From the IMG/VR virus record IMGVR_UViG_3300025073_000989: DNA of 64,000 nucleotides; one strand, written 5' to 3'. Below the pieces are notes generated by a model, which ran no database searches, had not been told where the DNA came from, and saw nothing but the letters and a program-made list of their open reading frames with translations. This DNA comes from a virus (taxonomy: Duplodnaviria; Caudoviricetes). Position numbers and translations under genes: made by a program. Of this stretch, positions 36,928 through 55,244 are shown in pieces (within the stretch, counting starts at the first letter, position 1; each line of letters begins with the position of its first letter).

Positions 36928-37152
36928 TTAATTATCTAGGAGAGTTTTCTTAACCAATAACAATTCATTGAAGACATCAAAGAAAGAATCACTGTGTTCT
37001 CCGGATACGTCTCGTTCTTTAAGATATACAAACATCTCGTATAGGTCATTCTCCGTTAGTTTACACTAATGTTTAACTAAACAGTTAGAACAGTATATAG
37101 GTAAAGTCGGGTCTACTGTCTTACATTTTTCACCAAAGCATTTATATTCCAT
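36928..37152 (-). pseudogene. Zn-finger + helical domain paralogue 4 with in-frame TAG
   Basis: MEYKCFGEKC...CSNCLVKH*CKLTENDLYEMF...FNELLLVKKTLLDN; TAG at 37068-37066; AAGGAG RBS. Confidence 0.7.
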
Positions 37153-37182
37153 TTTTTATCTCCTTTTTATTAGTTTACTTAT

Positions 37183-37211
37183 ATAATAATCATTTATTTT
37201 CAAATAATCAA
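37183..37211 (-). promoter_or_regulatory. Leftward sigma70-like promoter at the strand switch
   Basis: TTGATT-17-TATTAT on minus strand. Confidence 0.5.
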
Positions 37212-37243
37212 GTTTTATTTTTATATTAGTTTGAATTATTTAT

Positions 37244-37335
37244 TAGTTTACGGTGGTTACTAGTTTACGGTGGTTACTAGTTTACGGTGGTTACTAGTTT
37301 ACGGTGGTTACTAGTTTACGGTGGTTACTAGTTTA
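37244..37335. repeat. 17-bp tandem repeat x5.4
   Basis: TAGTTTACGGTGGTTAC five perfect copies plus TAGTTTA, in the divergent intergenic region. Confidence 0.97.
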
Positions 37336-37597
37336 TAATACTATTACTATTATTATATAGGTTAGTTTATCGTGGTTGAACAGATTAATCAGCACCAAAA
37401 TTTTTTATTCTCGTCCTACTATCGTGGTCCAAGCTTAATTTTCATGGTGATTTATTGCATTAGGGAGCCTTCGGCTTTCCCCGTGTGTTGATTTATACTT
37501 TTTTATTTTATAGCCCCGGCCTATGCAGCTTTTACATTTTTTACCAGAGCACTGAGGCAATAAAGCCTAAATAATACTTAACGTAGGGAGGTGTATT

Positions 37598-37780
37598 ATG
37601 GAGATATCCAAAGAAAATGAGTACGAGGCTACTACTTGCCCACATTGTGGACAGGTGCGCGTTTTGGACATAGTGGCAGAAGAAGATGGTAGAATAACAG
37701 CTGTCATAGAAAGCTGTAAGAAATGTAACACTGCTCGTTTCCTGAAAGCCCCAGGCCGTGTATGGGCGGCTATGGGATAA
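37598..37780 (+). CDS. Zinc-ribbon protein
   Basis: CPHC...CKKC; GGGAGG RBS. Confidence 0.6.
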   Translation: MEISKENEYEATTCPHCGQVRVLDIVAEEDGRITAVIESCKKCNTARFLKAPGRVWAAMG

Positions 37781-37808
37781 ACCTTAATCTTAACTTGGAG
37801 GAAAGACA

Positions 37809-38123
37809 ATGATAATACGCAATAAGACTAAAAGAGACCTTCGTAATGTTACTATCGGTGTACTGCTTTGTGTTATATCTGCTATCATTATGTTTGGTGG
37901 TTATGTATTTTATATTAACACCGGAGTGAACGGTAGGGCCACAGAAATCGAGGTCCATTATGAAAACATACACCAGGTAAAAGTGCTGACCAAAACAACC
38001 GGCAATGAGATATTGGTCATCTTCAACGATAAGGTACATTGTACCTGGCTGCCTGGAGATACTGCCAACAAAGGAGATGTACACATCTTCTCTATTGACG
38101 GTAATACCACTGAAGAAAATTAA
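37809..38123 (+). CDS. Membrane-anchored hypothetical protein
   Basis: N-terminal TM; GGAGG RBS. Confidence 0.6.
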   Translation: MIIRNKTKRDLRNVTIGVLLCVISAIIMFGGYVFYINTGVNGRATEIEVHYENIHQVKVLTKTTGNEILVIFNDKVHCTWLPGDTANKGDVHIFSIDGNTTEEN

Positions 38124-38146
38124 CCCTTTACTGGAGGAATTGTTAT

Positions 38147-38533
38147 GTGGAAAGTACTGCGTTGGTTGTTTGTAATGTGGATACTGTTTTGTATTTTGGC
38201 AATGCTTCCTGGCTGGGGCCTGCTGTTGCTTTTGGCTGGATTGTTTTATGGACTATGGCAAGAGTAGGACCGCAACAGCTGTTGGTAGATTCGAAACAGG
38301 AATTAATAATTGGGTTAAAGGAGGAACGTGAAATGAATAAATGTGAGTTACTACCAATACACAATGGCATCTTGAGTCTGGACGTAATGGGGTGCCTGTT
38401 TGACCTGTATTGTAAAAACTGTACTGGAGAGAACTGTCCTCTGGTTGTAGTACACAACCAAGAAGCAGACAAGTATCTCTTTGCTTCTTATGGTATTCCT
38501 AATAAAGGGGACCATGTATTACCGTTAAACTGA
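38147..38533 (+). CDS. Hypothetical protein
   Basis: ORF; an internal ATG (MNKCE) has a strong GGAGG RBS, so the start is uncertain. Confidence 0.45.
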   Translation: MESTALVVCNVDTVLYFGNASWLGPAVAFGWIVLWTMARVGPQQLLVDSKQELIIGLKEEREMNKCELLPIHNGILSLDVMGCLFDLYCKNCTGENCPLVVVHNQEADKYLFASYGIPNKGDHVLPLN

Positions 38534-38586
38534 GGCGGGAATCAACTCCTAACTCATAGCCGCCCGGATGGGCAAAGGAGGGCTCG

Positions 38587-38733
38587 ATGTTACAGGAAGC
38601 CTCGGGCTTAGAGGCTAAGGCTTTAAACAACAACCACAACTCAGCAAAGGCTGATGCCGCTATGCTGCCAGCCAGTAACGTGCTGGCACCCGCCGTGAAG
38701 CGCCGTTTTTACTTCTATAGGACCGGCATATGA
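38587..38733 (+). CDS. 48-aa hypothetical protein
   Basis: AAGGAGG RBS then MLQEASGLEAK...; below ORF-track cutoff. Confidence 0.4.
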   Translation: MLQEASGLEAKALNNNHNSAKADAAMLPASNVLAPAVKRRFYFYRTGI

Positions 38734-38772
38734 GATATATTTCTACAACAAACTTAACAAAGGAGCCCAACA

Positions 38773-39312
38773 ATGAAAAACTGTAATCTTTTATACGATG
38801 TAATCGCTGCTCATCTCTTATGGCTGGAAACAAGCGGTATTTCAGGGAAAAGGGCCGACCTTAAAGGGGCCGATCTTAGATGGGCCAATCTTAGAGAGGC
38901 CAACCTTAGAAAGGCCAATCTTAGAGAGGCCAACCTTAGAAAGGCCAATCTTAGAGAGGCCGATCTAGAAGGGGCCGATCTGAAAAGGGCCAATCTAGAA
39001 GGGGCCGATCTTAGATGGGCCAATCTTAGAGAGGCCAATCTTAGAGAGGCCAACCTTAGAAAGGCCAACCTTGTAGGGGCCAACCTGGACTTCTCTTCAG
39101 GAATTCCATTTCACTGCGGAGGTACAGTGGCTAAGGGCGATGACTGCCTGTTCGCCCAAATACTGTACCACTTGACCAGACAGGACTGGTCAAACTGTTC
39201 TAAAGAAGTTCTGGAAGCTATCAAAATCATTAACAACATTAGATCGGCCAGCGGCGATAAGATAGTTGACCTGTTCTGTAAGTACAGGAAAGACGTAAAA
39301 ATACTTAATTAG
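38773..39312 (+). CDS. Pentapeptide-repeat protein, copy A (16 repeats)
   Basis: A(D/N)Lx repeats; near-identical to 42749 and 52383. Confidence 0.92.
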   Translation: MKNCNLLYDVIAAHLLWLETSGISGKRADLKGADLRWANLREANLRKANLREANLRKANLREADLEGADLKRANLEGADLRWANLREANLREANLRKANLVGANLDFSSGIPFHCGGTVAKGDDCLFAQILYHLTRQDWSNCSKEVLEAIKIINNIRSASGDKIVDLFCKYRKDVKILN

Positions 39313-39322
39313 GAGAATACTG

Positions 39323-39622
39323 ATGAGTAAAGAACACAGTATAGCCCTTGTAGGCATAGTTGTAATTAATCCGGAGGCTGTCTTGTCAAAAACAACTGTA
39401 GCAACTTCGCAAACAGCGTCCAAGGTTAGTTACTTCAGTACCGTTAATGGTAAGATAACCGTTAAGATACAAAAAGACGGTTCTGTTTTTATGTCAACCA
39501 ATAAAGGTAAATATACTCTTAAAAAACATCCAACCTTGAACATATGGACTGGTGTGTGTAAGAGCACCAAAGTCCACGTTTCTCTCAAGAAGATTGTCGG
39601 AAAAATTATATACTGGAAATAA
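39323..39622 (+). CDS. Hypothetical protein
   Basis: AGGAG RBS. Confidence 0.55.
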   Translation: MSKEHSIALVGIVVINPEAVLSKTTVATSQTASKVSYFSTVNGKITVKIQKDGSVFMSTNKGKYTLKKHPTLNIWTGVCKSTKVHVSLKKIVGKIIYWK

Positions 39623-39647
39623 CAAACGACTGTTATAAGGAGGAAGT

Positions 39648-39971
39648 ATGATAACTAGAATCACTGTAAATGACAAACCACTTCAAGAGGTGCTTGATTT
39701 TGCCCACGGCGGCGAAATAAGTGACGCACTAAAGTGCGAGGTTAAGGAAAAAGCACTTATAGTAAAATTCAGTAGAAGTGTCAAGCCTCCTACGCGCACT
39801 TATCGAAAGCCGAGAAGAGGTAAGGTTATTTTACGTAACGATATCAAAGAGGAAAGGAATCGCATACTGCTGCTGCGTAGTATGTCTATGCATATAGTTA
39901 ATCTTGGCAGTGGTAAAATACTTGTTGTCAAGATCGGAAAAAGGGTATTTATAAAAACAATAAAGAATTAA
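39648..39971 (+). CDS. Hypothetical basic protein
   Basis: GGAGG RBS. Confidence 0.55.
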   Translation: MITRITVNDKPLQEVLDFAHGGEISDALKCEVKEKALIVKFSRSVKPPTRTYRKPRRGKVILRNDIKEERNRILLLRSMSMHIVNLGSGKILVVKIGKRVFIKTIKN

Positions 39972-39984
39972 AAGGAGACAAGTT

Positions 39985-40338
39985 ATGAAGGCAGCTAAAG
40001 ACCCCTCACTAGTTTAGCCTAAGTGTTACATTCGTACAGCCGATAACACTATATTGGGAGGTATAATCTACAAAGATTACAAAACTGCCGTAGAAGCTTA
40101 CCAAATAGTCAACAACTCGTCATACAAAATAGTTGAAGGCTGTTGTAACCCGCGTACTGATTGTACCGTTATTACTGAAAACATTGTGTCGCACTTTTCA
40201 GCCTGGAAGGCAGCACTAGGTATAGCCTATAACGCAGCCTACGTAAATGATATTGATATAAACAATAAAGCTTACTGGGACCACGAAATAAAGGCTCTTG
40301 AGAAGATATATTGTGCTGCTTGTAGGCTCGGCTTCTAG
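39985..40338 (+). pseudogene. Hypothetical protein with in-frame TAG at codon 11
   Basis: AAAGGAG RBS + ATG 39985 in frame with ORF 40054; TAG at 40015-40017. Confidence 0.55.
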
Positions 40339-40386
40339 AACAAAAAAATCAAGGTGATATAGTCTATCAATAATAGGAGCAATATT

Positions 40387-40587
40387 ATGACAAAATCAAT
40401 AGGCAGATTTAATTACGATATTAAGTACCCAAAAAGAGGAGGCGGCTTCCGTATTATCAAAAGAGGTAAGTGGTATATTAACCAATGTACTCCTGTTGGA
40501 GAGGACGCCGAGCTTTATGAGTGTATGCCTTACGGTGGAAGAAGGCTGTTAGACATAAGCAGAATGATCGAGCTAACAGAAAAGTAA
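40387..40587 (+). CDS. Hypothetical protein
   Basis: AGGAG RBS. Confidence 0.55.
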   Translation: MTKSIGRFNYDIKYPKRGGGFRIIKRGKWYINQCTPVGEDAELYECMPYGGRRLLDISRMIELTEK

Positions 40588-40760
40588 CAAGGAGGGGTTT
40601 TATACAAAGTCGCTGTTTGTAGTGATTGTGGCGGACAATTAGCCATCGTATACTGGAAAAATACAGAAACAGGTAAGATAGAACCTAACTATGGGACTTG
40701 CTTAGTTTGCTTAAAATGTTTTCCAGTGCAATAAACAAAAAATAACAAGGAGATGAATTT

Positions 40761-41021
40761 ATGTTCTGCCCAAATTGTACAGAACCTATGAGAATAGTTA
40801 ACCACAAATTTATATGCAGCAATTGTGGTTTTTCAGAAGAAATTACAGCAACAGCGTCTTCCTGCGTAATTTGTGGCAGAGAAAAGCTAAATGAGCTACT
40901 TGTTGACTTATTCTTCTTAGAGAACTCGCTTGGTCCAGAATACATTACACGTTTTGATAGGGCCTTTATAAAACAAAAAGTACTTGAAAGATGCCCCGAT
41001 TGTATCAGAGCAAATATATAA
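40761..41021 (+). CDS. Zinc-ribbon protein
   Basis: CPNC...CSNC...CVIC...CPDC. Confidence 0.6.
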   Translation: MFCPNCTEPMRIVNHKFICSNCGFSEEITATASSCVICGREKLNELLVDLFFLENSLGPEYITRFDRAFIKQKVLERCPDCIRANI

Positions 41022-41235
41022 AGTAAGCGTCAGGAGATGTCTTACCAAACATGGCAGAGCTCGTTTTATAGAGCGAATAGGTTATATGTCAGATAAGGAA
41101 ATGCTATCTGTAGCCACAATTGGCCTCGTTGGTTACAATTTTATTTGGGCCGCCGACTCGAAAGATAAGCGGTGTTTAAGGTTGGTCACGTTAGTACCTG
41201 TAGACACCTGTCGCAATGAGGCAGAGCAGTTCTAA
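40984..41235 (+). CDS. Hypothetical protein (possibly frameshifted at 3-prime end)
   Basis: ORF; an alternative frame continues NGPLYDLISWFSSFARP after 41233. Confidence 0.4.
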   Translation: MKDAPIVSEQIYKVSVRRCLTKHGRARFIERIGYMSDKEMLSVATIGLVGYNFIWAADSKDKRCLRLVTLVPVDTCRNEAEQF

Positions 41236-41417
41236 ATGGACCGCTCTATGATTTAATATCCTGGTTTTCTTCTTTTGCTAGACCAAAAAGTATAGACAAA
41301 AGAGCTTATAAAACTATACAGCAGTAATTTTGCTGCGCAGCTTTACACCCGGCTAAATTTTTCAATTTAACATGGCCCCGACGGGCTTCGCCCGCCGCTC
41401 CTCCGGTGGCCCGCTCC

Positions 41418-41458
41418 CGGCATACTACTTGCTAGAACACAAAGCAAGTAGTATGCCG
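41418..41458. repeat. Perfect 16-bp inverted repeat in GC-rich intergenic element
   Basis: CGGCATACTACTTGCT - 9 nt - AGCAAGTAGTATGCCG. Confidence 0.9.
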
Positions 41459-41641
41459 TACGCTCCGCCTTCCGTTACTAGTAGGCCTTAGCTTCGTACT
41501 AACCGCCTGTAGGACCAGGACATCACTCGCACCAACTACTTAGCTACGACTAAACAATCTTTTGTTCACGTAACTACACTTTCTTTTTTCCCGTCTTTTG
41601 AACCCCTTTATTACTTCACCTTTATAAGAAGGAGGAAAACA

Positions 41642-41998
41642 ATGCCATTATACACAGCACAATTTCGTTACTCAGGACCGGACAGATTGGACATAACCGT
41701 AAAATCCAGTAATGGGGCATTACGTATTTTCGCACCAACCTGGAAAATGGTTACAGACTACAAGAATCATGGAGATAAATTCTTCTATACAAGTATGTAC
41801 AACAGCCTTTTGTTGGCTGCTATAGAAAAACACAGAAACACATTTCAGCATCTTCACAACAAAGCTACTGAGGGAGATGCTACTTTAGTATGCTATTGTC
41901 CAGCAGAAAACTTCTGTCATCGTTTATTATTGGCAGAGTTTATGTACAAACATTTCGAAACAATATTGGGAGGAGAACGATGTTTAAAGAAACAGTAG
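41642..41998 (+). CDS. DUF488-family protein
   Basis: FAPTWKMV...Y...Y and LVCYC...FCHRLLLA motifs. Confidence 0.75.
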   Translation: MPLYTAQFRYSGPDRLDITVKSSNGALRIFAPTWKMVTDYKNHGDKFFYTSMYNSLLLAAIEKHRNTFQHLHNKATEGDATLVCYCPAENFCHRLLLAEFMYKHFETILGGERCLKKQ

Positions 41999-42201
41999 AC
42001 AAAGAAAACGTATGGCTCGGATTCAAGATAGTAATAGGCCTAATGTTTATAGTAGCGTTGTGGCCTATTATAGTAGCCATACTTACCTTCCTGTTCTGGC
42101 TTATGTTGTATACTATTTTATTTATAGTCATAACAGCAAGTGTTTTAATAGGCATGAGCTGCGTTGGTAAACTCTACCACAAATTAAAAGGAGCATTATG
42201 A
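41980..42201 (+). CDS. Small membrane protein
   Basis: GGAGGAG RBS before ATG 41980; two hydrophobic helices. Confidence 0.55.
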   Translation: MFKETVDKENVWLGFKIVIGLMFIVALWPIIVAILTFLFWLMLYTILFIVITASVLIGMSCVGKLYHKLKGAL

Positions 42202-42752
42202 AAACCATCTGTTTTACTGGACCAAGAAAAATATATGGGAGTTATTCCGGGTCTGAACATACACGGATATATCATAAGTTAATCGAGGTAGTAAAAAGAG
42301 CCTATAAAGGCGGATTCAACCATTTCATTTCCGGCGCCGCTTTGGGTATAGATACCTTAGCGGCAGAGGCGGTTTTGTATTCAATACAAAGCTTGTGGCT
42401 GCCCATAAAGCTCACGGTAGCTTTATCTCACAAGGACCACGGATCAAACTGGCCACGACCATCACAACAAAGACTTAGGTCCATATGCCATAGGACGGCC
42501 GCCACAAAAGGCGAAATTATAACAGTATCAGCAGGACCATTTCACAATGGTGTAGGAAACATAAGGAACTACTGGATGATAGACAGAAGTGACGCAGTAA
42601 TCGCAGTATGGGAAAATCCAAAAAAAGGGGGCACAAAGCACGCAGTAGAATATGCTTTCAAAAAAGGACTACCTATACTCTTGATAGATCCAATAACGCT
42701 GAACGAAATATGGAAACAACAACTCAACCTTAACAAAGGAGCCCGACATTGA
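42198..42752 (+). CDS. SLOG-superfamily (YspA/DUF1273-like) protein
   Basis: ICFTGPR, FISGAALGID..AAE, RN.WMIDRSD.VIAVW, GGTKHAVEYA. Confidence 0.85.
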   Translation: MKTICFTGPRKIYGSYSGSEHTRIYHKLIEVVKRAYKGGFNHFISGAALGIDTLAAEAVLYSIQSLWLPIKLTVALSHKDHGSNWPRPSQQRLRSICHRTAATKGEIITVSAGPFHNGVGNIRNYWMIDRSDAVIAVWENPKKGGTKHAVEYAFKKGLPILLIDPITLNEIWKQQLNLNKGARH

Positions 42753-43183
42753 AAAACTGTAATCTTTTATACGATGTAATCACTGCTCATCTCTTATGGC
42801 TGGAAACAAGCGGTATTTCAGGGAAAAGGGCCGACCTTAAAGGGGCCGATCTTAGAGAGGCCAATCTAGAAGGGGCCGATCTTAGAGAGGCCAACCTTAT
42901 AGGGGCCAACCTGGACTTCTCTTCAGGAATTCCATTTCACTGCGAAGGTACAGGGGCTAAAGGCGATGACCACCTGTTTGCCCAAATGTTGTTCCATTTG
43001 ACCAGGCAGGATTGGTCGACGTGCTCAGAGGAAGTTAAGAAAATAGTTAAATCGATAAACAAAATAAAAAGCAATAACGGAAGAGCAGTTGACCTGTTCT
43101 GTAGATACAGGACGGATGTAGAAACCCAGAACACTTTTTCCCGTCTTTTGAGGACTCAAACAAAGGACCAAATCAAGTCCTAA
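42749..43183 (+). CDS. Pentapeptide-repeat protein, copy B (6 repeats)
   Basis: TTG start; same N- and C-terminal domains as copies A and C. Confidence 0.88.
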   Translation: MKNCNLLYDVITAHLLWLETSGISGKRADLKGADLREANLEGADLREANLIGANLDFSSGIPFHCEGTGAKGDDHLFAQMLFHLTRQDWSTCSEEVKKIVKSINKIKSNNGRAVDLFCRYRTDVETQNTFSRLLRTQTKDQIKS

Positions 43184-43213
43184 CCAAAAAACCTTCATGA
43201 AGGAGACAACGAA

Positions 43214-44824
43214 ATGACTGAAGTAATTGAAGCTGAAGCAGCAGAAATACAAAAAGTGCCTGAGCAAGCACCAGAACCCACAGTTAACAAATGGTTTCCT
43301 GAATGCCAAGTTGCTATGTTCAGTACGCAACTGATAAGCTTAAAGCTGCTTAACATTTTCAGGTACATTCTCAACACACACAACGAACATGGGATAAACT
43401 CCGTAGTATTCAATACGAATATCCCAAGAAATGGCCTGGCTAACTTTGATCTGGAAACCAAGGCAATGGCAATAAACGTGGATGAACACGTGAAACTGGC
43501 TGGGAAGAAAATAACAGAATCTATACTGATGATGGAGATGGGCGCATCTGTCCAATCCTCTATGATCGCAACGTTTCTTCACGAACTTTATCACGCCGAA
43601 AAATATATGGACGCTGATGACCCATACAGCATCGATCACGACAAAGAAGACGAGGCCGCCGAGCATTTTGCCTGGTCAGAATTAATGGACCTGGCCGAGC
43701 ATATCAATATTGAACCGGCAGCAACCGGGGAAGAAAGTACATTCCTCCTATCTGCCATAACCATGTTTGAGCAAACACTCAATGCTCAAGAAAACGCAGA
43801 CGAAGACTGGTGCAAAGTATACCAGATAATAATCGACGAAAAACTGGTATACATGGACAGCGAAAAGAAACTGAGCAGCCTGCGCAACTTCTTCAGACGA
43901 GTAGTTACCGGTGAAGGAAAAGACGATAACTGGCCTGATGATGTCAGAGAAATAACCGAATCGATGTTCTCGGTACCTGACATCAATAAACCGGCCAAGA
44001 ATAATATAACCTTGGCAATGCCGACAATCGCTTCAACTGAATTACTACCGTCAGTGCCTGTAGTCACGGTACCAATAGCTACGCTGACAGAAACTACCTC
44101 AGAAATCACAACTCTTGATTATACCAACTACGTCGATTACGGAGACGATACTCCGACACATCAAGCATACCACAACGAATGCGGTCAAAGCGCAATTCCG
44201 GCAATGCTGGCTCAGCCTGCTCAAATATCCAACCCAGCCGCAGCACCAATACAAAACACAAACGTGCTGATAGCCGGACATACTTTGGCCGAATGGACAA
44301 ATTGTTTAGCTGAAGTATGTAAAAGGATGACCAGCACATTCTTCAACCAATGTGGGTTCAATCCAGGCATCGACAACGATCAGGGGTTCACCCAGCCGTC
44401 CAGCGTGTATGCCCCCATAGGTATTGCAGATATACCACTGGCAAAAGAATTACTGATTGAATATATTACCCATGATTCGGCCGGCAACAGAATACGAGTC
44501 GACATATGGAATCCGACTATGGCCGGCGTAAACCCTGGTGAAATCCGCGGTATAGTGTGGGATAAATCTCAAACAAACAGGACCTCGGACTTCCCACTTC
44601 CAGGTTATGATTTCTTCCTCAATTCAGCAGTAGTAGGTGAACATTGCCGAAGAACCTTGGCACCGCAAAACTGTAACAAACGCGGGACAAATGGTCAACT
44701 GAAAGCCTGGGCAAAACAAGCCAGGGCAGGAAAGAAGCTGGCAATGTTATTCAACGATAAAGTAGAGCAGAAAATCAGAATGATTATCGAAGACGGCGAA
44801 GTAAAAGTAAATCCGTTCGGGTAG
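43214..44824 (+). CDS. Multidomain protein with N-terminal HExxH (zincin-like) domain
   Basis: FLHELYHAE followed by E.AAE; T/P-rich linker; unknown C-terminal domain. Confidence 0.6.
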   Translation: MTEVIEAEAAEIQKVPEQAPEPTVNKWFPECQVAMFSTQLISLKLLNIFRYILNTHNEHGINSVVFNTNIPRNGLANFDLETKAMAINVDEHVKLAGKKITESILMMEMGASVQSSMIATFLHELYHAEKYMDADDPYSIDHDKEDEAAEHFAWSELMDLAEHINIEPAATGEESTFLLSAITMFEQTLNAQENADEDWCKVYQIIIDEKLVYMDSEKKLSSLRNFFRRVVTGEGKDDNWPDDVREITESMFSVPDINKPAKNNITLAMPTIASTELLPSVPVVTVPIATLTETTSEITTLDYTNYVDYGDDTPTHQAYHNECGQSAIPAMLAQPAQISNPAAAPIQNTNVLIAGHTLAEWTNCLAEVCKRMTSTFFNQCGFNPGIDNDQGFTQPSSVYAPIGIADIPLAKELLIEYITHDSAGNRIRVDIWNPTMAGVNPGEIRGIVWDKSQTNRTSDFPLPGYDFFLNSAVVGEHCRRTLAPQNCNKRGTNGQLKAWAKQARAGKKLAMLFNDKVEQKIRMIIEDGEVKVNPFG

Positions 44825-44829
44825 CGATC

Positions 44830-45105
44830 ATGCTACCTATAACGGGATGGGTCTTCAAAATAGAAGGAGATAAAGTAGTTGTCAGAACAAAAGTAGGCAA
44901 CTTCCTAACAGCTCCAACAAAAACAATACTGGAGGAAGACAAAAATCTTCCGTACGGAACAAAAATACGGATAAACTTTAACCACAAATCAAACAAAATA
45001 AAAAACATAAAAAAAATGACAACACCAATAAAAGGGACCGTGGTTAAGGCCACGTGTTCTATGACAACAATAATATTAGGGGAGGATAATATAGAAAAAC
45101 TATAG
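44830..45105 (+). CDS. Hypothetical protein
   Basis: ORF in operon. Confidence 0.5.
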   Translation: MLPITGWVFKIEGDKVVVRTKVGNFLTAPTKTILEEDKNLPYGTKIRINFNHKSNKIKNIKKMTTPIKGTVVKATCSMTTIILGEDNIEKL

Positions 45106-45183
45106 GACTAAAAGATTTTTTACCGACTTTTTGAAAACCAACTGAAAGGCCTCACTATTAACAATCCACAAGGAGATCACAAA

Positions 45184-47108: not shown

Positions 47109-47129
47109 TTTGTAGTACCCCCCCCCTAC

Positions 47130-47555
47130 TTAAAAAACGTAATACAAAAATTAGTTATACCCCATCTACAAAATGTAGAAGGTATTAAAAAACGTAATAC
47201 AAAAATTAGTTATACCCCATCTACAAAATGTAGAAGGTATTAAAAAACGTAATACAAAAATTAGTTATACCCCATCTACAAAATGTAGAAGGTATTAAAA
47301 AACGTAATACAAAAATTAGTTATACCCCATCTACAAAATGTAGAAGGTATTAAAAAACGTAATACAAAAATTAGTTATACCCCATCTACAAAATGTAGAA
47401 GGTATTAAAAAACGTAATACAAAAATTAGTTATACCCCATCTACAAAATGTAGAAGGTATTAAAAAACGTAATACAAAAATTAGTTATACCCCATCTACA
47501 AAATGTAGAAGGTATTAAAAAACGTAATACAAAAATTAGTTATACCCCATCTACA
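47130..47555. repeat. 55-bp perfect tandem array x7.7 with internal hairpin
   Basis: TTAAAAAACGTAATACAAAAATTAGTTATACCCCATCTACAAAATGTAGAAGGTA, units start 47130, 47185...47515; each has a TCTACA-AAA-TGTAGA dyad. Confidence 0.97.
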
Positions 47556-47870
47556 TTTTATTTAATTATATTTTATCTAATTTGTAGGATACCTATAATA
47601 TAATCATTTGTATTACAAAAACAAGCCTCCTACAAAAATAAATTATATAGTCTATATCTACCTTATTATAGAGCTAAATCACTGAATATGGTTCATATAG
47701 CCTATTTTCTATAACAAAATTAATAAATTGAATAACAAAGGGGTATAAAAATTAATAAAAAGAAGAATAAACTATGGGTATTGTATACTACTATATTAAA
47801 GCATCTAAACCCAATTTTACTCGCCGGCTAAAAGATAACTATATTAATAACTTATGTGAGGGACTAATCT

Positions 47871-48074
47871 ATGAGTAGAATATACAAAATGATTATAAGA
47901 AAATGCATGGACTGCCCAAGTTGTACGGATATAATAAATAAACCGTTCTGGAAAACGCCTTCTTCGAATTGGTGTTCTTTATCAAAAAGAAGCATATTCA
48001 ATATACAATCTTTTCCTGACTAGTGTAGCCTAGAAAAAGCAGTTTTCGATGAAAGAGCCAAAGCACGAAAATAA
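47871..48074 (+). pseudogene. Cys-rich protein with in-frame TAG at a Trp position
   Basis: MSRIYKMIIRKCMDCPSC...QSFPD*CSLEKA...; TAG 48021-48023 falls in the common phage motif PDWCPL; GAGGG RBS. Confidence 0.7.
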
Positions 48075-48142
48075 TTATATTTGCATAGGGGTATTTTCGA
48101 TACCTAGTCTAATAAAATCAAATACTTACGAAGGATAAAATT

Positions 48143-48540: not shown

Positions 48541-48690
48541 GTATAGTATAGTATACCGCAATATAGTATACCGCAATATAGTATAGTATAGTAAAACAGT
48601 AATATACCGCAGTGTAGTAAACCGCAATATAGTATACAGTTATACAAGAGTATAGTATAAAGTAGTATACCGTAGTATAGTATAATATAT
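48541..48690. repeat. Low-complexity TATAG/ACCGCA repeat tract
   Basis: TATAGTATACCGCAA x2 (48547-48576), four ACCGCA, many TATAG units. Confidence 0.8.
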
Positions 48691-48975
48691 AATAAATCTA
48701 TAGTCTAGTAAATCAATCACATAATAAAATTAATAAGCATCAGTCTTGTCCTTTTTATAGTGATACTGGACTTAGTTGTAGTTCACCTGTTGGTAGTAGT
48801 AAGTTTGCTAATCCTTATGTTGATACAGTACCTTTAGGTTGTCTTTTACTTGATGAATGAGTATTAATCAAAGTTAAAAATTATGCCAACTAATCTTTTT
48901 AGCCCGGCAGAAAAATTTGATATAAAGAGTATAAATACTTATTATTAAACATTAAATTATAAGGAGTATATTCTA

Positions 48976-49188: not shown

Positions 49189-49253
49189 TAAAAATTATGC
49201 TAAATAATTCTTTTCGCGCGGGATGAAAAATTTAATCAAATGAAGGAGTTATT

Positions 49254-49589
49254 ATGAAAACTGATAAGATAAAAGTAGGAGATATAGTAATTATTACGGA
49301 TAGAAGCTACGGTATGTCCAAAGTAGGGCGTAAGCTGGTTAAAGATTGTTTTCTCAGAGCATCATGACCTTCTTCAGAGCCGAGCACTACGAGCCACAAG
49401 TGCCGAGTAATGGAAATAGGAGGCCCTTTTCCTACCAACATGCTTTGTTATGATCAAGGTTTAGTTACACGTAAACCGCCAACGAATGATGTAAAGCTTA
49501 GCGTGATCGGAATTAAAGGAGTGGCTATCTATACCAATCTGAAATTCATAGTTAAGGCGCTTGAAATTCCAGAAAAAACCAAAAAATAA
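49254..49589 (+). pseudogene. 111-codon ORF with single in-frame TGA
   Basis: AAGGAG RBS, MKTDKIKVGDIV...RAS*PSS...EKTKK; TGA 49365-49367. Confidence 0.55.
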
Positions 49590-49813: not shown

Positions 49814-50011
49814 ATGAATACTATTATAATTAAGCGTCTGAACACAAAGTTGTATGTTTTCAAAGGGCAGGTCTATCAAAGTTTGGACCCAATTGACACA
49901 ATATGCCAAGAATTTTTCAAAGGTCAACCAGTCCAAATAACAGACGCAGATAAGCATGAAAAAGCTTTTTGGGGCTTCTCCATAAAAGATGGTACAGCAA
50001 CTATTATTTAA
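49814..50011 (+). CDS. Hypothetical protein
   Basis: AAGGAG RBS. Confidence 0.55.
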   Translation: MNTIIIKRLNTKLYVFKGQVYQSLDPIDTICQEFFKGQPVQITDADKHEKAFWGFSIKDGTATII

Positions 50012-50096
50012 GGAAACAACCATGAAATACACAAGTTGACGGAAGAATCAAACTTGATCACTGTATAATCTGTAAAAATCCTATTTAGGGGGCACT

Positions 50097-50672
50097 ATGG
50101 ACAACAATAGTTGAATACCAAAAGTCGGAGATATCTGCACACAGAAAAAGCAAAAAAGTATAAAATTAGGATCTCATCACTTTAATTATCTTATAGATAT
50201 GTTCTTTGCGCAAGTATATGCAAGATTTAATCATATAGCTATTGCTGAAATTATACTTTCCATTTTGGGCGAGCCTAAGATTTTACTTACAGTAAATACA
50301 GTACATAACTACATTAGTCCTATTGATATGATGATTAGAAAAGGGGCTATTGCAAGTTATAAAGATTCGTTAATGGTAATTCCGTTCAATATGGAAGATG
50401 GTTTATTAATTTGTAGAGGAAAATCCAATGAGGGCTGGAATTTTTCCGCCCCTCATGGGGCCGGTAGAATTGGTAGTCGCGCTTGGGCAAAAGAAAATCT
50501 AAATCTTGAACAAGCAAGAGCAGGCATGTCGTCAAAAGGAATTTATTCTTCTAATATTCCAATAGACGAAACCAAGGGAGCCTACAAATCATCAGAAATG
50601 ATAAAGGCAGCGATTGGGCCTACAGCTGAAATAATTCATCAAGTAAGACCAATACTTAATATTAAAGCGTGA
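50097..50672 (+). pseudogene. rtcB: RtcB RNA ligase C-terminal fragment fused to short leader
   Basis: YL.DM..AQ.YA..N, HNY, RKGA, IPFNM, SAPHGAGR, DE...AYK present; N-terminal metal-binding motifs absent; in-frame ATG 50097 with TGA at 50112. Confidence 0.75.
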
Positions 50673-51523
50673 GGTACTTTATGATTGATCTTTGGAACTC
50701 AAGTACAAGTAAATATCTGAAGGATTTGGTGATATATTTCAGTAATCTTGAACAAAAACCTTTTTATGAAGGAGTAAGTAAAATGTTTAATAAAGATGAT
50801 TCAACTTGGTCACGGAGTCAGGACGCTCTTTTATTAGGATTCCAAACAACTTGCAGAGAAAGGATCGCTAAGTTATTAAAAGTAGAAGATTTAGCAACTG
50901 AGGCCAGCAAAGAATTTATTCCTAGACATGAGGAAAAAGTTGCTTCAGTTATGGCAGATATAAATAATCGTATAGCGACAGATATTCAAGATCTAAAAGA
51001 TACTTTTGAGTACAGACTTTTTTCTTCAGATAACCCCACTTTATTACAAAGAATTTTTAATTTTTTTAATAGCAACGAAAGAAAATATTCTTTTGTACCA
51101 GAATCTATTGAAGTGGAAAAAAGAACATTTGCTATATATGAAGGATTGCTGGAAACTACAATTAGCTTTAAAGTAAAAGCCTCTGCTTGGAAGGGCTATC
51201 ATAAACGAATAGGTTATAGAAGAGGTTATATAAGAGAAGAAGAAACCATTATAAATAGGTGTTTTTATATTAAAACTCAAGCTAGAAGGGGTAGAACAGC
51301 TTATATAGCGTATGATAAATATTCCGCAAGTTTGCTACCGGACAAAGTTTTACATGTAGTAAAAGATGCAATTCTTATCGGAATGACTGATATACAAGTA
51401 GCTGTTCCTATGGTTGAACCGGCCCAAAAAGATCCTATTATAGTTGGATTTGTAGACGAGCAGATGTTCCTTATAACCTGGTTTGGTTACGACCTCAATA
51501 AGCATACGTCGTATAATCTCTAA
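50669..51523 (+). CDS. Hypothetical protein
   Basis: 284-aa ORF; C-terminal DPIIVG...FLITWFG. Confidence 0.65.
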   Translation: MRYFMIDLWNSSTSKYLKDLVIYFSNLEQKPFYEGVSKMFNKDDSTWSRSQDALLLGFQTTCRERIAKLLKVEDLATEASKEFIPRHEEKVASVMADINNRIATDIQDLKDTFEYRLFSSDNPTLLQRIFNFFNSNERKYSFVPESIEVEKRTFAIYEGLLETTISFKVKASAWKGYHKRIGYRRGYIREEETIINRCFYIKTQARRGRTAYIAYDKYSASLLPDKVLHVVKDAILIGMTDIQVAVPMVEPAQKDPIIVGFVDEQMFLITWFGYDLNKHTSYNL

Positions 51524-51540
51524 TAATTTTTGTTGGAGAA

Positions 51541-52032
51541 ATTAAAATACAAGAAATTACTGGTAATATACTTGATTTTAAGAGAGGTATCATATGTCAA
51601 CAAGTAAACTGTATGGGAGTAATGGCCGCTGGTTTGGCCAAAGAGATCAAAACCGTGTATCCTGAGGTATATACAATATACCGTAATTGGTTTGAAAATA
51701 ATTACTTAAGTTTAGGACAACTATGTTGTGTTCCAATCAATAACCCTAACAATTCATTGTGGATAGCTAATTTATGTGGTCAATACAACTACGGTAGAAG
51801 TGGCTGCTATACAAGTTACGACGCTTTAACTGTAGCGTTACAAGCATTAGCTAACTTCATTTCTCAAAGATATATCCTTAGAGATCTACCAGTTTATATT
51901 CCATACAATATGGGTTGTGGTTTGGCCGGTGGAGACTGGAGTAGAGTGAAACAAATTATTTCAGAAAAGATACCGGAAGCGATTATTGTACGTTTACCAA
52001 AAAAAGGACTAAACCTATGCCTACTACAATAA
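51541..52032 (+). CDS. Macrodomain ADP-ribose hydrolase (DarG/Poa1p-like), start codon unclear
   Basis: Frame open upstream of ATG 51613: IKIQEITGNILD...IICQQVNCMGVMAAGLAK; IPYNMGCGLAGGDW; no ATG/GTG/TTG at the expected start. Confidence 0.8.
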   Translation: MKIQEITGNILDFKRGIICQQVNCMGVMAAGLAKEIKTVYPEVYTIYRNWFENNYLSLGQLCCVPINNPNNSLWIANLCGQYNYGRSGCYTSYDALTVALQALANFISQRYILRDLPVYIPYNMGCGLAGGDWSRVKQIISEKIPEAIIVRLPKKGLNLCLLQ

Positions 52033-52355: not shown

Positions 52356-52382
52356 ACGAAACTCTAACAAAGGAGCTCAACA

Positions 52383-52862
52383 ATGAAAAACTGTAACCTT
52401 TTGTACGATGTAATCGCTGCGCACCTCTTGTGGTTGGAAACAAGCGGTATTTCAGGGACAAGGGCCGATCTTAGAGGGGCCAATCTTAGAGAGGCCGATC
52501 TTAGAGGGGCCGATCTTAGAAAGGCCGATCTGAAAAGGGCCAATCTAGAAGGGGCCGATCTTAGAGAGGCCAATCTTAGAGAGGCCAATCTTAGAGAGGC
52601 CAACCTTAGAAAGGCCAACCTTGTAGGGGCCAACCTGGACTTCTCTTCAGGAATTCCATTTCACTGCGGAGGTACAGAAATCATAGGAGATGACCGGATG
52701 TTCGCCCAAATACTGTACCACTTGACCAGACAGGATTGGTCAAACTGTTCTGAAGAAGTTCTGGAAGCTATCAAAATCATTAACAACATAAGATCGGCCA
52801 GCGGCGATAAGATAGTCGACCTGTTCTGTAAGTACAGGAGTGACGTAAAAATACTTAATTAG
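52383..52862 (+). CDS. Pentapeptide-repeat protein, copy C (12 repeats)
   Basis: Near-identical to copy A including flanking RBS regions. Confidence 0.92.
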   Translation: MKNCNLLYDVIAAHLLWLETSGISGTRADLRGANLREADLRGADLRKADLKRANLEGADLREANLREANLREANLRKANLVGANLDFSSGIPFHCGGTEIIGDDRMFAQILYHLTRQDWSNCSEEVLEAIKIINNIRSASGDKIVDLFCKYRSDVKILN

Positions 52863-52937
52863 GAGAATACTAATGGGCAATAATAAAGGCTTTACTCTTA
52901 ATGATTTACAGAGAAATAAAAAGATAAGGGGACTGGA

Positions 52938-53176
52938 ATGGTTAAGTCAATACTATCATCAGAAGACCTTTCCATTTGGAAAAACTTTTAAGTCTAACAA
53001 ATGAAAAAGGTATTCTAAAAACTGCCGTGGAAGCTGGTTTTCACAACGCAGATTGTCCAGGACATGATGCAGTGCTTATAGACCCGTATTTTTGGTTTTT
53101 AGTTTTATACGGTGCTACTTTTGTTATTATTTCGATTGCTTTGATGATATATGATACTAGTAGAGAGAACTATTAA
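52938..53176 (+). pseudogene. Membrane protein, apparent frameshift near 52980
   Basis: AGGGG RBS + MVKSILSSEDLSIW joins EKLLSLTNEKG... only after a frame change. Confidence 0.45.
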
Positions 53177-53569
53177 TGCCTTTGGGCCCAACGATAAAGC
53201 TCAGTGGACGCCGCCACAGAAGGGCTAAAAAATCAGCGCAAGGAGTTAATTTTATATGCAAAACCTAGAGTTCAATGCCTTTTGCGAAACGATACGGAGG
53301 TATTTCAAATGCGACGCCTCCTGTTATAGGTAGCACTTTTTAATTTTTTAACCCAGTGGATGGCGCCGGCGCGCAGGAGGGTCTTATAAACTCTTTAGCT
53401 GTAGATCACAGTTCTCGGGAGGGATCTACACCCTCATCCACTACCAATTTTAGTAGGAGAAATTAAATGTCATGGAATGACATTTAAAAGTTTTTGTCCA
53501 CCAAGACAAAAAAGTAGTAAACCAACCAAGCAGTCCAACCGTAAACCAAATGTAGGAGAAAGAAAGACT

Positions 53570-54391
53570 ATGGCACCAAGATTTGAGAAGGCAGTAGGAA
53601 TTGAAGTGGAATTTTTTGTAAAAAATGATAAGGGTGAGGTAGTAATGCCCGGTACTAATCTGGACAGGGATGATTTTCCACTTCTTGGAGAAATCAGAGC
53701 TGTTCAAGGTAAAACTATGGCTGAAGCCTTAGGCAATTTCTACAGAAAAAAAGTAGAAATGGAAGCTCTTTTAACAAAAAAGCAAGTTATGTCCATTTCA
53801 CACTTCGAACTTGCAAAGCTTAAGGTATACCAAGAAGCTATTAGGCTAATAACCGCACCAAAAAACAGTAAAGATATACGTAACATTTACGGAATCGATA
53901 TATCTGGTTTTACTGATCAAGTAGTTAAAGATGGTAAAATTCAAGGAGCTAATGTTTCCTGTGGTCTTCATATTCATCTCTCTTGTAGAGAAATTGATGA
54001 GGTTAAAGTGGAACAAGATGTTTATTCCGCAGTAAGTATACCAATTACTACTACCGCCTCAAAAGATGTTATTGGTCTTACCCATTTGGTTACTCCGTGT
54101 CTATCACTATTTAAACATGAAGGCACAAAGATTGAAAGAACGCTTATGGCATCTACATCAAAATTAAATCAGCCCACAATTGAATATATTGTTAGGGCTT
54201 TTGATGAAAAATTCTTTAAAAGATTTGCGCCGAAAAAAGAAGAATGCACAAAGTATCGTCAACCTGGATTCTTTGAACGGAAATCTTATGGTTTTGAATA
54301 TAGAAGCCTCCCCGCTAACGCAGAAACTATTAACGCTTTACCAGAGATAGTTGGTTTCGCGTTTGATATGCTAAAGCTAGCTTCAAGTTAA
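53570..54391 (+). CDS. phiEco32-like COOH-NH2 (amido)ligase
   Basis: GIEVEFF, GEIR, CGLHIHLS, YRQPG...GFEYRSLP; AGGAG RBS favours ATG 53570. Confidence 0.75.
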   Translation: MAPRFEKAVGIEVEFFVKNDKGEVVMPGTNLDRDDFPLLGEIRAVQGKTMAEALGNFYRKKVEMEALLTKKQVMSISHFELAKLKVYQEAIRLITAPKNSKDIRNIYGIDISGFTDQVVKDGKIQGANVSCGLHIHLSCREIDEVKVEQDVYSAVSIPITTTASKDVIGLTHLVTPCLSLFKHEGTKIERTLMASTSKLNQPTIEYIVRAFDEKFFKRFAPKKEECTKYRQPGFFERKSYGFEYRSLPANAETINALPEIVGFAFDMLKLASS

Positions 54392-54478
54392 TCAATAAAT
54401 CGAAGATAGCAGCTTTCCGGCATCCACTGGATGTAATTGTTGGGCGATTTTGCCCTTATCATTAGAGGAAAATAGGAC

Positions 54479-54676
54479 ATGGAAGAACAGATATTGCCCA
54501 GCGAGGAATTTAAAATGACAAAAGGGATTCTTTATTGTGTATGTGCTGAAGCGGAAGCAGAAATATGTGATAGATGCGAAAAATATAAAAGAATAAAACC
54601 AGATCACACATTGAATTACCCAGCGTGGAAAAGAGAAAACGCACAACTACCAGAAAACGGCATCGATGCCGCTTAA
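54479..54676 (+). CDS. Hypothetical protein
   Basis: ORF with CVC...CDRC. Confidence 0.5.
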   Translation: MEEQILPSEEFKMTKGILYCVCAEAEAEICDRCEKYKRIKPDHTLNYPAWKRENAQLPENGIDAA

Positions 54677-54741
54677 AATGACGAGCAAGCAAAGCACGGG
54701 GCTATCAATGTATTTCTTATAATTAGATTAAAAATTTTGTT

Positions 54742-54903
54742 AGCTGATGTGCCGGAACTGGCATACGGCGGTGTGGATATAAGCCTATATGGATGGGGTT
54801 GAGCAATAAATAGCGGCCTTCTGGCTCAAGGCAAAAACCACCGTGGACTAAACAGCCAGACGTAATAGTCCTATTCGGGTTCGACTCCCGGTATCAGCTA
54901 CCA
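54742..54903 (+). ncRNA. tRNA-shaped RNA with 65-nt insert in place of anticodon loop
   Basis: Acceptor (A)GCTGATG/TATCAGC(T) plus ACCA; class-II D arm CCGGAACTGGCATACGG; T arm TCGGG-TTCGACT-CCCGG; variable arm GGACTA/TAGTCC; CGGTG/CACCG stem encloses 54774-54838. Confidence 0.8.
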
Positions 54904-54926
54904 GTTGGAGAGTAAAGGAGAAAATT

Positions 54927-55244
54927 ATGGCCGAAGAACAAGTCCTGCTTGAAATTAGTAAACACTACTTTAATTTTTAAGAAAAAATAAAACTAACCGA
55001 AAGTTATCTACAAAAAACAGTTTGCTAGGAATACTTTATGTTGAACACATTACTATTTAAGTGGAATTACCGGTGTTTTGAGCCCCCACAACCATGCTTC
55101 ACTTGTGGTTCCGAAGAATACTATAGGGTTGATACAGAAGAAGGCTATCTTGTATTGTGTAAATCCTGCTACAATAAATTTGACCCTGTTTATAAACAAC
55201 CTTCTAACACTATTACTCTTCCTATTATAGGGGGTATATTATGA
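54927..55244 (+). pseudogene. Zn-ribbon protein with two in-frame stops in N-terminal part
   Basis: AAAGGAG RBS + ATG 54927 in frame with ORF 55038; TAA 54978, TAG 55026. Confidence 0.5.

What the first reader, a model, noticed from the sequence alone, without database searches (positions are those of the whole stretch)
36928..55244. Accessory genes carry single stop codons, several at Trp positions, in a phage encoding a TadA/CDA-fold deaminase
Seen: RBS-led ORFs that continue past one stop: TAG 48021 in FPD*CSL, TGA 50112 in *IPKVGD, TAG 37066, TAG 40015, TGA 49365, plus TAA 54978 and TAG 55026. A strong RBS precedes TTA at 40600 and ATT/ATA at 51541/51547. The long core genes have no such breaks, which argues against random sequencing noise. 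Established: PDWCPL and WxPKVGD are common phage motifs; A-to-I editing makes UAG and UGA read as Trp and AUA/UUA as starts. Inference: either G-to-A-biased erosion of dispensable genes or a speculative editing/readthrough switch involving the deaminase at 58527. Nearby frameshifts (about 41233, 52980, 63056, 63600) favour simple decay.
Basis: partly seen in the sequence, partly recalled or inferred. Interest (0 to 1): 0.6.

Follow-up and report, generated by a model that had tools for sequence, protein, structure and literature searches.

The report
Broken accessory genes in jumbo phage
An uncultivated giant phage carries about ten recently broken small accessory genes (premature stops, lost start codons, one half-deleted RNA ligase gene); this looks like ordinary gene decay, not RNA editing or an altered genetic code.

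Summary
Such breaks cluster in the plus-strand accessory block (36.9-64 kb) and are absent from the minus-strand core block.

Homologues settle three cases:
- The TAG at 48021 replaces the Trp of a conserved PDWC(P/S)L motif.
- The 'gene' at 50097 is only the 3' 40% of RtcB.
- The macrodomain gene at 51517 is full length but has no ATG, GTG or TTG start.

The same broken products occur on 11-24 contigs from four public sources, so these are not assembly errors.

I found no support for recoding or editing. All three stop codons are broken through, and all three also end normal genes. No stop-reading tRNA is in the window. None of the sites has the UACG motif of TadA editing. The deaminase at 58527 resembles dCMP deaminases, not TadA. 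Three paralogous cassettes show no G-to-A excess, and stops at Trp codons are expected from ordinary transitions.

Verdict: young pseudogenes and gene relics in a fast-turnover accessory region. This is a known kind of thing, of low interest. Leaky expression is not excluded.

The parts
36931..37152 (-). Gene A: RBS-led 74-codon Cys-rich frame broken by TAG at 37066-37068 (...CLVKH*CKLTE...)
   Evidence: Both halves score best in frame 0. The post-stop part has no RBS-led start. No homologue was found, so the ancestral residue is unknown.
39985..40338 (+). Gene B: ATG 39985 behind AAAGGAG, TAG at codon 11 (40015-17), then 106 open codons with no ATG at all
   Evidence: The C-terminal YWDHEIKAL motif is shared with phage proteins (phrog_24659; E. 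coli phage PJ16). The 94-aa post-stop product is on 23 contigs, the longest 275,832 bp. No full-length form is in the collection.
40588..40735 (+). Gene C: 48-codon CxxC...CxxC frame behind RBS AAGGAGG (40589-95) with no canonical start (TTA at 40600); it lies in frame with the upstream gene's TAA at 40585
   Evidence: An ancestral TTG changed to TTA is an inference.
47871..48077 (+). Gene D: 67-codon Cys-rich gene with TAG 48021-23 at the Trp of the PDWC(P/S)L motif, 17 codons before its natural stop
   Evidence: HMMER search of 1.84 billion proteins found P0012 (65 aa, E 7.7e-4). The pairwise alignment runs across the stop: FPD[stop]CSLEKA against IPDWCPLETA (E 3e-12).
49254..49589 (+). Gene E: 111-codon gene with TGA at 49365-67 (37 + 73 codons)
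   Evidence: The two fragments are on 15 contigs. An exact 111-aa form with Trp at the stop (P0005) is on 3 short contigs (2,578 bp or less). That form is either a TGG allele or a code-4 gene call.
50097..50672 (+). Gene F: relic of RtcB RNA ligase. Only the C-terminal ~163 residues remain (50181-50669), fused to an unrelated 28-codon leader that holds TGA 50112-14
   Evidence: Pfam RtcB positions 227-425 of 426. phrog_1075 positions 268-441 of 459. tblastn of a 421-aa phage RtcB matches residues 258-420 only, and the N-terminal half is nowhere in the window.
51517..52032 (+). Gene G: complete DarG-like macrodomain gene without a canonical start codon (ATT 51541, AAA 51544, ATA 51547 behind GGAGAA; first ATG at 51613 lies inside the domain)
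   Evidence: phrog_335 matches from residue 2. The N-termini of homologues (MI.EV.GDLL) align with window KIQEITGNIL. NCBIfam DarG, E 2.8e-17. All conserved motifs are intact.
54927..55244 (+). Gene H: RBS-led ATG 54927, TAA 54978, TAG 55026, then a 68-aa zinc-ribbon ORF with its own ATG at 55038. This is the weakest case.
   Evidence: DUF7685 hit below cut-off. The 68-aa product is called on 4 contigs.
52873..53176 (+). Probable +1 frameshift at GGAAAAACTTTTAAG, splitting a gene of about 110 codons with a C-terminal membrane helix
   Evidence: The second frame has no RBS-led start. No homologues were found.
62851..63577 (+). Possible multiply broken gene (TAG 63025 plus two frame switches)
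   Evidence: No homologues, so this is unverified.
58527..58901 (+). 124-aa CDA-fold deaminase (HAE...PCxxC), dCMP-deaminase-like; no evidence links it to the stops
   Evidence: Pfam PF00383, E 6e-12. The top four PDB matches are a human CDADC1 (cytidine/dCMP deaminase domain protein) and three dCMP deaminases; TadA reaches E 0.77. No NCBIfam TadA hit at E 0.001 or better.

Best explanation
The plus-strand block from about 37 kb onward is the fast-turnover accessory and early-gene region of a 270-kb-class uncultivated phage. It holds about ten recently inactivated genes. Point mutations made premature stops (TGG to TAG in D, probably TGG to TGA in E) or removed start codons (G, C). A deletion removed the 5' 60% of RtcB (F). 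At least one indel shifted a frame (near 52980). The genes are dispensable or redundant, for example counter-defence-type genes (DarG-like macrodomain, RtcB) and tiny Cys-rich proteins. The damage is therefore tolerated, is fixed in the population, and has not yet been deleted. Each gene carries only one or two lesions and keeps its codon usage, so the inactivations are young. The stops terminate translation as usual, and the deaminase serves nucleotide metabolism. Shown: the lesions, their clustering, their reproducibility, and the homology across three of them. Inferred: relaxed selection as the cause, and the ancestral codons other than in D.
For: Coordinates and frames. Codon usage continues across the breaks in 17 of 18 segments. 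Breaks cluster in the accessory block only. D aligns across its stop to a Trp. F is a 5'-truncated RtcB. G is full length without a start. The same broken products are on 11-24 contigs in JGI, ENA, Logan and MetaClust, the longest 275,832 bp. Different lesion types occur together (nonsense of all three kinds, start loss, truncation, frameshift). All three stop codons also end normal genes (TAA 39, TAG 11, TGA 9 of 59 genes of 100 aa or more). No stop-anticodon tRNA in the window, even with introns allowed.
Against: About 15-20% broken genes is high for a phage. Every lesion is single (or double in H), and the reading frames are otherwise clean. That is also what one would see if low-level expression were still selected. 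A 111-aa form of E with Trp at the TGA exists in the protein collection. The genome outside the window, including its tRNA cluster, could not be searched. For A, B, E and H no homologue spans the stop.
Confidence: 0.77

Rival explanations
1. Attenuated but functional genes. The stops and the near-cognate start codons (ATA or ATT, TTA) are kept because they lower expression to a few percent. UGA-C in E would be read by tRNA-Trp, and initiation in G would occur at AUU or AUA. This would suit enzymes or toxic early proteins that are needed only in traces.
For: The frames stay open and codon-like after the break. G keeps every conserved macrodomain motif. E's TGA is followed by C; from my own knowledge, UGA-C is a weak terminator in E. 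coli. The lesions are fixed in all assemblies seen.
Against: D loses the conserved WC.L end. F lacks the whole N-terminal 60% of RtcB, so it cannot be rescued by readthrough. Stops at codons 6 and 11, and a double stop in H, are not like known programmed readthrough. All contigs are near-identical, so being fixed says nothing about selection.
Confidence: 0.1
2. Stop-codon recoding or suppression by phage-encoded tRNAs, as in phages that read TAG as Gln or TGA as Trp. One of the atypical tRNA-shaped RNAs at 53355 or 54742 might be involved.
For: Two unusual tRNA-like genes lie inside the region. More tRNAs are reported outside the window (earlier notes, untested).
Against: Three different stop codons are involved. 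Each also ends many normal genes, and the 35 long core genes have none in frame. The only tRNA call has anticodon UAU. The intron-allowing model of 54742 gives UGG. Neither reads a stop. Known recoded phages concentrate recoded stops in late structural genes (PMC11210395, abstract seen, plus my own knowledge); here it is the opposite.
Confidence: 0.03
3. The stops arise from deaminase action. Either A-to-I mRNA editing by the 58527 deaminase restores Trp and Met codons, or a host DNA cytosine deaminase hypermutated this region, in the way APOBEC causes G-to-A changes.
For: The lesions whose ancestral codon is shown (D) or assumed (E, G, C) would all be G-to-A on the sense strand. A CDA-fold deaminase is encoded 3 kb downstream.
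Against: The deaminase groups with dCMP deaminases, not TadA. No site has the UACG context. TGG-to-stop is G-to-A by necessity. Cassette paralogues show no G-to-A excess. GC skew in the block is positive, so G is not depleted. The sequence contexts of the mutated G differ from site to site.
Confidence: 0.02
4. Sequencing or assembly artefacts, or a minority allele taken into the consensus.
For: This is a metagenome-assembled genome. One frameshift sits in a homopolymer run. An exact full-length Trp form of E exists on 3 short contigs.
Against: The same truncated products are found on 11-24 contigs from JGI, ENA, Logan and MetaClust, including a 275,832-bp contig. The RtcB truncation and the missing starts are not substitution errors. 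The core genes of the same assembly are clean.
Confidence: 0.05

Closest known systems
Pseudogenes and gene remnants in the hyperplastic accessory regions of large phages (T4-like and jumbo phages; my own knowledge, no paper read here)
   Same: Small non-essential genes between conserved modules are gained, broken by point mutations and deletions, and lost. Core modules stay intact.
   Different: The density here is high: about ten lesions in 27 kb. Several lesions are single nonsense or start-loss hits in otherwise pristine frames, which points to very recent inactivation.
Stop-codon reassignment in phages (TAG to Gln, TGA to Trp; Crassvirales, Lak phages; PMC11210395, PMC10879173)
   Same: In-frame stop codons in phage genes; tRNA genes nearby.
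   Different: In those phages one stop type is recoded in many, mostly late, genes and a matching suppressor tRNA is present. Here three stop types occur once each or a few times, only in small accessory genes, all three are also used as terminators, and no suppressor tRNA was found in the window.
TadA-dependent A-to-I mRNA editing in bacteria (hokB and others; PMC10027721, PMC12214031)
   Same: A CDA-fold deaminase is encoded nearby, and editing of A could in principle turn UAG or UGA into a Trp-like codon.
   Different: Known sites carry UACG in a tRNA-Arg-like loop, and none of the sites here does. The phage enzyme is closest to dCMP deaminases. PMC10027721, the one review I searched, does not contain the phrase 'stop codon'; I know of no report of stop-codon rescue by editing in bacteria or phages.
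APOBEC3G hypermutation of retroviral DNA (TGG to TAG/TGA, ATG to ATA; my own knowledge)
   Same: The same visible signature: Trp codons turned into stops and start codons turned into ATA.
   Different: Hypermutation gives dense G-to-A changes in a fixed dinucleotide context on one strand. Here there is no G-to-A excess in paralogue comparisons, no common context and no G depletion.

Membership tests
Stop-codon-recoded phage (genetic code 15 or 4 type) | One stop codon type occurs in frame many times across many genes, typically late genes | tested here: not met
   About seven in-frame stops of three types, all in small accessory ORFs. The 35 core genes of 100 aa or more (9,555 codons) tile the minus-strand block without breaks.
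Stop-codon-recoded phage (genetic code 15 or 4 type) | The recoded codon is avoided as a terminator | tested here: not met
   Terminators of 59 genes of 100 aa or more: TAA 39, TAG 11, TGA 9, in both core and accessory blocks.
Stop-codon-recoded phage (genetic code 15 or 4 type) | The phage encodes a suppressor tRNA with a matching anticodon | tested here: inconclusive
   None in the 64-kb window (ARAGORN default and with introns, Rfam). The rest of the genome, including a reported tRNA cluster, could not be searched: no genome is held.
TadA-type A-to-I mRNA editing | The enzyme is a TadA orthologue | tested here: not met
   No NCBIfam TadA hit at E 0.001 or better. The weak hits are to dCTP/dCMP deaminase models. 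The best PDB matches are dCMP deaminases; TadA 2nx8 reaches E 0.77.
TadA-type A-to-I mRNA editing | The edited A lies in a UACG motif in a tRNA-Arg-like loop | tested here: not met
   Contexts: GAC-TAG-TGT, GTT-TAG-CCT, CAT-TAG-TGT, TCA-TGA-CCT, AGT-TGA-ATA, TTT-TAA-GAA, TGC-TAG-GAA, AAA-ATA-CAA, GTT-TTA-TAC. None contains TACG (motif from PMC10027721).
TadA-type A-to-I mRNA editing | A-to-G differences between RNA and DNA at the sites | not testable with these tools
   No reads or transcriptome are available.
Pseudogene or gene relic | Homology to an intact gene family continues across or beyond the lesion | tested here: met
   Met for D (P0012 across the stop), F (RtcB residues 258-420 only) and G (homologues' N-termini align upstream of the first ATG). 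Not testable for A, B, E and H, which have no spanning homologue.
Pseudogene or gene relic | The lesion is real in the DNA, not an assembly error | tested here: met
   Identical truncated products are on 11-24 contigs from four sources. These may in part be re-assemblies of the same reads.
Pseudogene or gene relic | Loss of function or relaxed constraint (no full-length product; elevated dN/dS) | not testable with these tools
   All available copies are near-identical. No diverged orthologues were found.
RtcB RNA ligase (gene F) | A complete catalytic domain, including the N-terminal metal-binding half | tested here: not met
   Only Pfam positions 227-425 of 426 are present. The N-terminal half is absent from the window.

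The most novel reading that the evidence does not exclude
The single stops at Trp codons and the near-cognate start codons are kept as expression dimmers. Trace amounts of full-length accessory proteins would be made by tRNA-Trp misreading of UGA/UAG and by AUA/AUU initiation, perhaps helped by one of the phage's atypical tRNA-shaped RNAs. In that case the 'pseudogenes' would be a regulated low-dose gene set.
Probability: 0.06. Interest if true: 0.7.

Novelty: already known. Interest (0 to 1): 0.17.

Why it matters
Mostly as a caution. G-to-A-looking Trp-to-stop and ATG-to-ATA changes next to a deaminase gene invite an editing story, but ordinary transitions in an AT-rich genome produce the same picture. 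For annotating this giant phage, the result means that about ten accessory ORFs, including an RtcB fragment and a DarG-like macrodomain, should be marked as disrupted rather than as functional counter-defence genes. It also means that the accessory block turns over quickly. If the low-probability 'dimmer' reading were true, it would be a new way for phages to set gene dosage.

Tried and rejected
Searches that led nowhere:
- No near DNA match of 36.9-55.3 kb in 50,697 phage records.
- tblastn against phages found nothing for A, D, E and H. For B it found only weak hits to the C-terminal part.
- The word-based protein search for E found nothing, because its fragments fall under the length window.
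- A profile search with D plus P0012 found only P0012. tblastn of P0012 against phages gave noise.
- Searches for related loci found no relative: the 284-aa protein and PhoH in viral contigs, E in metagenome contigs, the 284-aa protein in genome contigs.
- The 284-aa protein in metagenome contigs gave one 37%-identical hit on a 1.7-kb contig with no shared neighbours.
I therefore could not read the DNA of the contigs that carry the Trp form of E, or the phage's tRNA cluster.
- The ESM Atlas search for E was uninformative (best score 0.81). The AlphaFold model of E had pLDDT 36.
- Pfam and PHROGs gave nothing for the frameshift candidates.

Ideas rejected:
- The TAGs of B and D share a 15-mer (ACTAGTKTAGCCTAR). 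However, 27 of 300 random sets of stop triplets match as well, and the motif is not enriched in the window.
- A code-4 gene call might explain the Trp form of E. The code-4 extended forms of F are not in the collection, so this stays open.
- G-to-A hypermutation: there is no excess in the cassette paralogues.
Full report
CONTEXT. The window is AT-rich phage DNA. A minus-strand block at 1-36.9 kb holds long, tightly packed genes. A plus-strand block of about 65 small genes runs from 37.5 kb to the window's end. Earlier notes of this scan describe the genome as an uncultivated 268-276-kb jumbo phage; I took that as a lead only. No whole genome is held. The region has no near match among 50,697 deposited phage genomes.

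- A: minus strand, ATG 37152 behind AAGGAG, 28 codons, TAG 37066-68, 45 codons.
- B: ATG 39985 behind AAAGGAG, 10 codons, TAG 40015, then 106 codons with no ATG.
- D: ATG 47871, 50 codons, TAG 48021, 17 codons.
- E: ATG 49254 behind AAGGAG, 37 codons, TGA 49365, 73 codons.
- F: ATG 50097, 5 codons, TGA 50112, 185 codons.
- H: ATG 54927 behind AAAGGAG, 17 codons, TAA 54978, 15 codons, TAG 55026, 72 codons.

Two frames have a ribosome-binding site but no canonical start. C is a 48-codon CxxC...CxxC frame behind AAGGAGG at 40589-95, with TTA at 40600. G (51517-52032) has ATT/AAA/ATA behind GGAGAA and its first ATG only at 51613.

IS IT MORE THAN CHANCE? I trained a codon-usage log-odds model on the 35 longest ORFs of the window. 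The claimed frame scores best of all six frames in 17 of 18 pre- and post-lesion segments. A scan of all coding-like open frames shows that in the core block every such frame of 60 codons or more has a start within 17 codons of its upstream stop. Frames with no start or a late start (A, B, C, E, F, G, 40972, 52946, 63057, 63281) all lie at 36.9-64 kb. A second scan looked for the pattern 'RBS-led start, stop, coding-like continuation without its own RBS-led start'. It recovers A, B, C and E plus a few marginal cases in the accessory block, and only one trivial case (5 + 21 codons) in the core. So the breaks are real and clustered.

WHAT HOMOLOGUES SAY.
- D. A full HMMER search of 1.84 billion representative proteins found a 65-aa protein, P0012 (E 7.7e-4). 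It aligns end to end with D: RIYK.II..C..CP...D...W...WC..KR, then FPD[stop]CSLEKA against IPDWCPLETA (pairwise E 3e-12). The TAG therefore replaces a Trp, and the coding sequence once ran on to the next stop. The truncated product loses the terminal WC.L element.
- F. Pfam and PHROGs match RtcB only from profile position 227 of 426 (Pfam) or 268 of 459 (PHROGs) onward. Hundreds of phage RtcB genes align only from F residues 17-31 onward. tblastn of a 421-aa phage RtcB against the whole window matches residues 258-420 at 50181-50669 and nothing else. F is thus a 5'-truncated relic fused to 28 unrelated codons. Whether its TGA was a Trp is moot.
- G. phrog_335 matches from residue 2 of the open frame. 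Macrodomain proteins of Bacillus phage FADO and Geobacillus virus E3 begin MI(H/K)(I/E)V.GDLL, which aligns with window KIQEITGNIL. The gene is full length with all conserved motifs, but the start position now reads ATT-AAA-ATA. It is DarG-like (NCBIfam NF048014, E 2.8e-17, below cut-off).
- B. It shares only a C-terminal motif with phage proteins, from residue 26 on, which does not settle its N-terminus. The strong RBS plus ATG at 39985, and the lack of any ATG or RBS-led start after the TAG, make a nonsense hit at codon 11 the simplest reading.
- A, E and H have no detectable homologues.

NOT AN ASSEMBLY ERROR. Exact look-ups in a 15-billion-protein collection find the broken products on many contigs from JGI/IMG, ENA, Logan and MetaClust:
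- B post-stop, 94 aa: 12 + 11 contigs, the longest 275,832 bp.
- The two halves of E: 15 contigs.
- F from its internal ATG: 16 contigs.
- G from its internal ATG: 16 contigs.
- Intact neighbours: 18 and 24 contigs.

No full-length B (Trp or Gln at the stop), D, A, F or H form is present. One exception is the 111-aa form of E with Trp at the TGA (P0005), which is on 3 contigs of at most 2,578 bp. The counts add up (15 + 3 = 18, the number of contigs with the gene just upstream). So either a TGG allele exists, or gene callers chose a TGA=Trp model on short 30%-GC contigs. The code-4 extended forms of F are not in the collection, which does not decide it.

RECODING AND EDITING.
- All three stop codons appear as lesions, and all three end normal genes (TAA 39, TAG 11, TGA 9 of 59 genes of 100 aa or more).
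- ARAGORN finds one tRNA-like gene in the window (53355-53446, anticodon UAU, 92 nt). Rfam finds nothing.
- With introns allowed and a relaxed threshold, ARAGORN models 54742-54903 as a tRNA with a 66-nt intron and anticodon UGG. No stop anticodon appears.
- The deaminase at 58527 (HAE...PCxxC, 124 aa) hits PF00383. Its weak NCBIfam hits are to dCTP/dCMP deaminase models. Its best solved relatives are T4, Streptococcus mutans and cyanophage dCMP deaminases; TadA reaches only E 0.77.
- TadA-dependent mRNA editing in bacteria has UACG at all 15 E. coli sites (PMC10027721). None of the nine sites here contains TACG.

IS THERE A G-TO-A BIAS? Using the third pentapeptide cassette as outgroup, the substitutions that separate the other two copies are G>A 4, C>T 5, A>G 4, T>C 6, plus a few transversions. 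There is no excess. GC skew on the coding strand of the block is positive. In this window's genes, 296 of the 681 transition routes to a stop are G>A at Trp codons and 385 are C>T at CAA, CAG or CGA. So 'several stops at Trp' is what ordinary transitions give. The 15-mer shared by the TAGs of B and D is matched by 27 of 300 random control sets.

MECHANISM. The most likely picture (about 0.77) is young pseudogenes and relics in a fast-turnover accessory region. Different lesion types occur side by side: nonsense, start loss, a large 5' deletion and a frameshift. They occur in small or redundant genes, while the core is clean. Each gene has one or two lesions and intact codon usage, so the hits are recent. 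Leaky expression through near-cognate decoding (about 0.10) is not excluded for E and G, but it cannot rescue F or explain D's lost motif. Suppressor-tRNA recoding, deaminase editing or hypermutation, and artefact are each unlikely, for the reasons above.

FRAMESHIFT CLAIMS. 52873-53176 shows a clean +1 switch at GGAAAAACTTTTAAG with no start for the second frame. 62851-63577 looks broken by a TAG and two frame switches. Both lack homologues. I could not confirm the claims at 41233 and 63600. The radical SAM domain begins at residue 2 of the frame that opens with GTG 63648.

NOVELTY. Gene decay in phage accessory regions is known. The case is a somewhat dense example, and a useful correction to annotation: the RtcB and DarG-like genes here should not be counted as working counter-defence genes.

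Noticed in passing
window 37207-37342: Five to six tandem 17-bp units (ACTAGTTTACGGTGGTT) lie in the gene-free junction between the minus-strand and plus-strand blocks. They look like iterons or operators. Similar half-sites occur at 36900, 37057 and 40008.
   Followed up: partly
window 38000-46000: A GC-rich island (0.40-0.47, against 0.28-0.34 on either side). It holds two of three near-identical pentapeptide-repeat cassettes (38755-39320, 42731-43183; the third is at 52365-52875), a DUF488 gene and a SLOG/YpsA-like gene. It looks like foreign DNA acquired later.
   Followed up: partly
window 51517-52032: The macrodomain gene without a start is DarG-like (NCBIfam NF048014, E 2.8e-17, below cut-off). 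A phage-borne DarG-like macrodomain would be a candidate counter to DarT DNA ADP-ribosylation defence.
   Followed up: partly
window 53355-53446 and 54742-54903: Two atypical tRNA-shaped genes ending in CCA. The first is 92 nt with a long variable arm and anticodon UAU (ARAGORN; no Rfam hit). The second is 162 nt; ARAGORN can model it only as a tRNA with a 66-nt insert in the anticodon loop. Neither reads a stop codon.
   Followed up: partly
window 47075-47665 and 46560-47108 (-): Seven exact 55-bp tandem units lie directly upstream of a minus-strand HNH endonuclease gene with a C-terminal DUF6290 (RHH-like) part.
   Followed up: no
window 48875-48918 / 49189-49232 and 51520-51560 / 53441-53481: Pairs of similar leader sequences, about 40 nt long, stand in front of different small genes. 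They are probably repeated promoter and RBS modules of the early-gene block.
   Followed up: no
window 48545-48700: A gene-free stretch full of degenerate TATAGTATACCGCAA-like repeats between two small genes.
   Followed up: no
window 53570-54391: An amidoligase-like protein (GIEVEF and CGLHIHLS motifs, read by eye; no Pfam hit). It probably starts at ATG 53570, not 53477. A 6-codon mini-ORF (ATG 53467) sits behind the better RBS.
   Followed up: no
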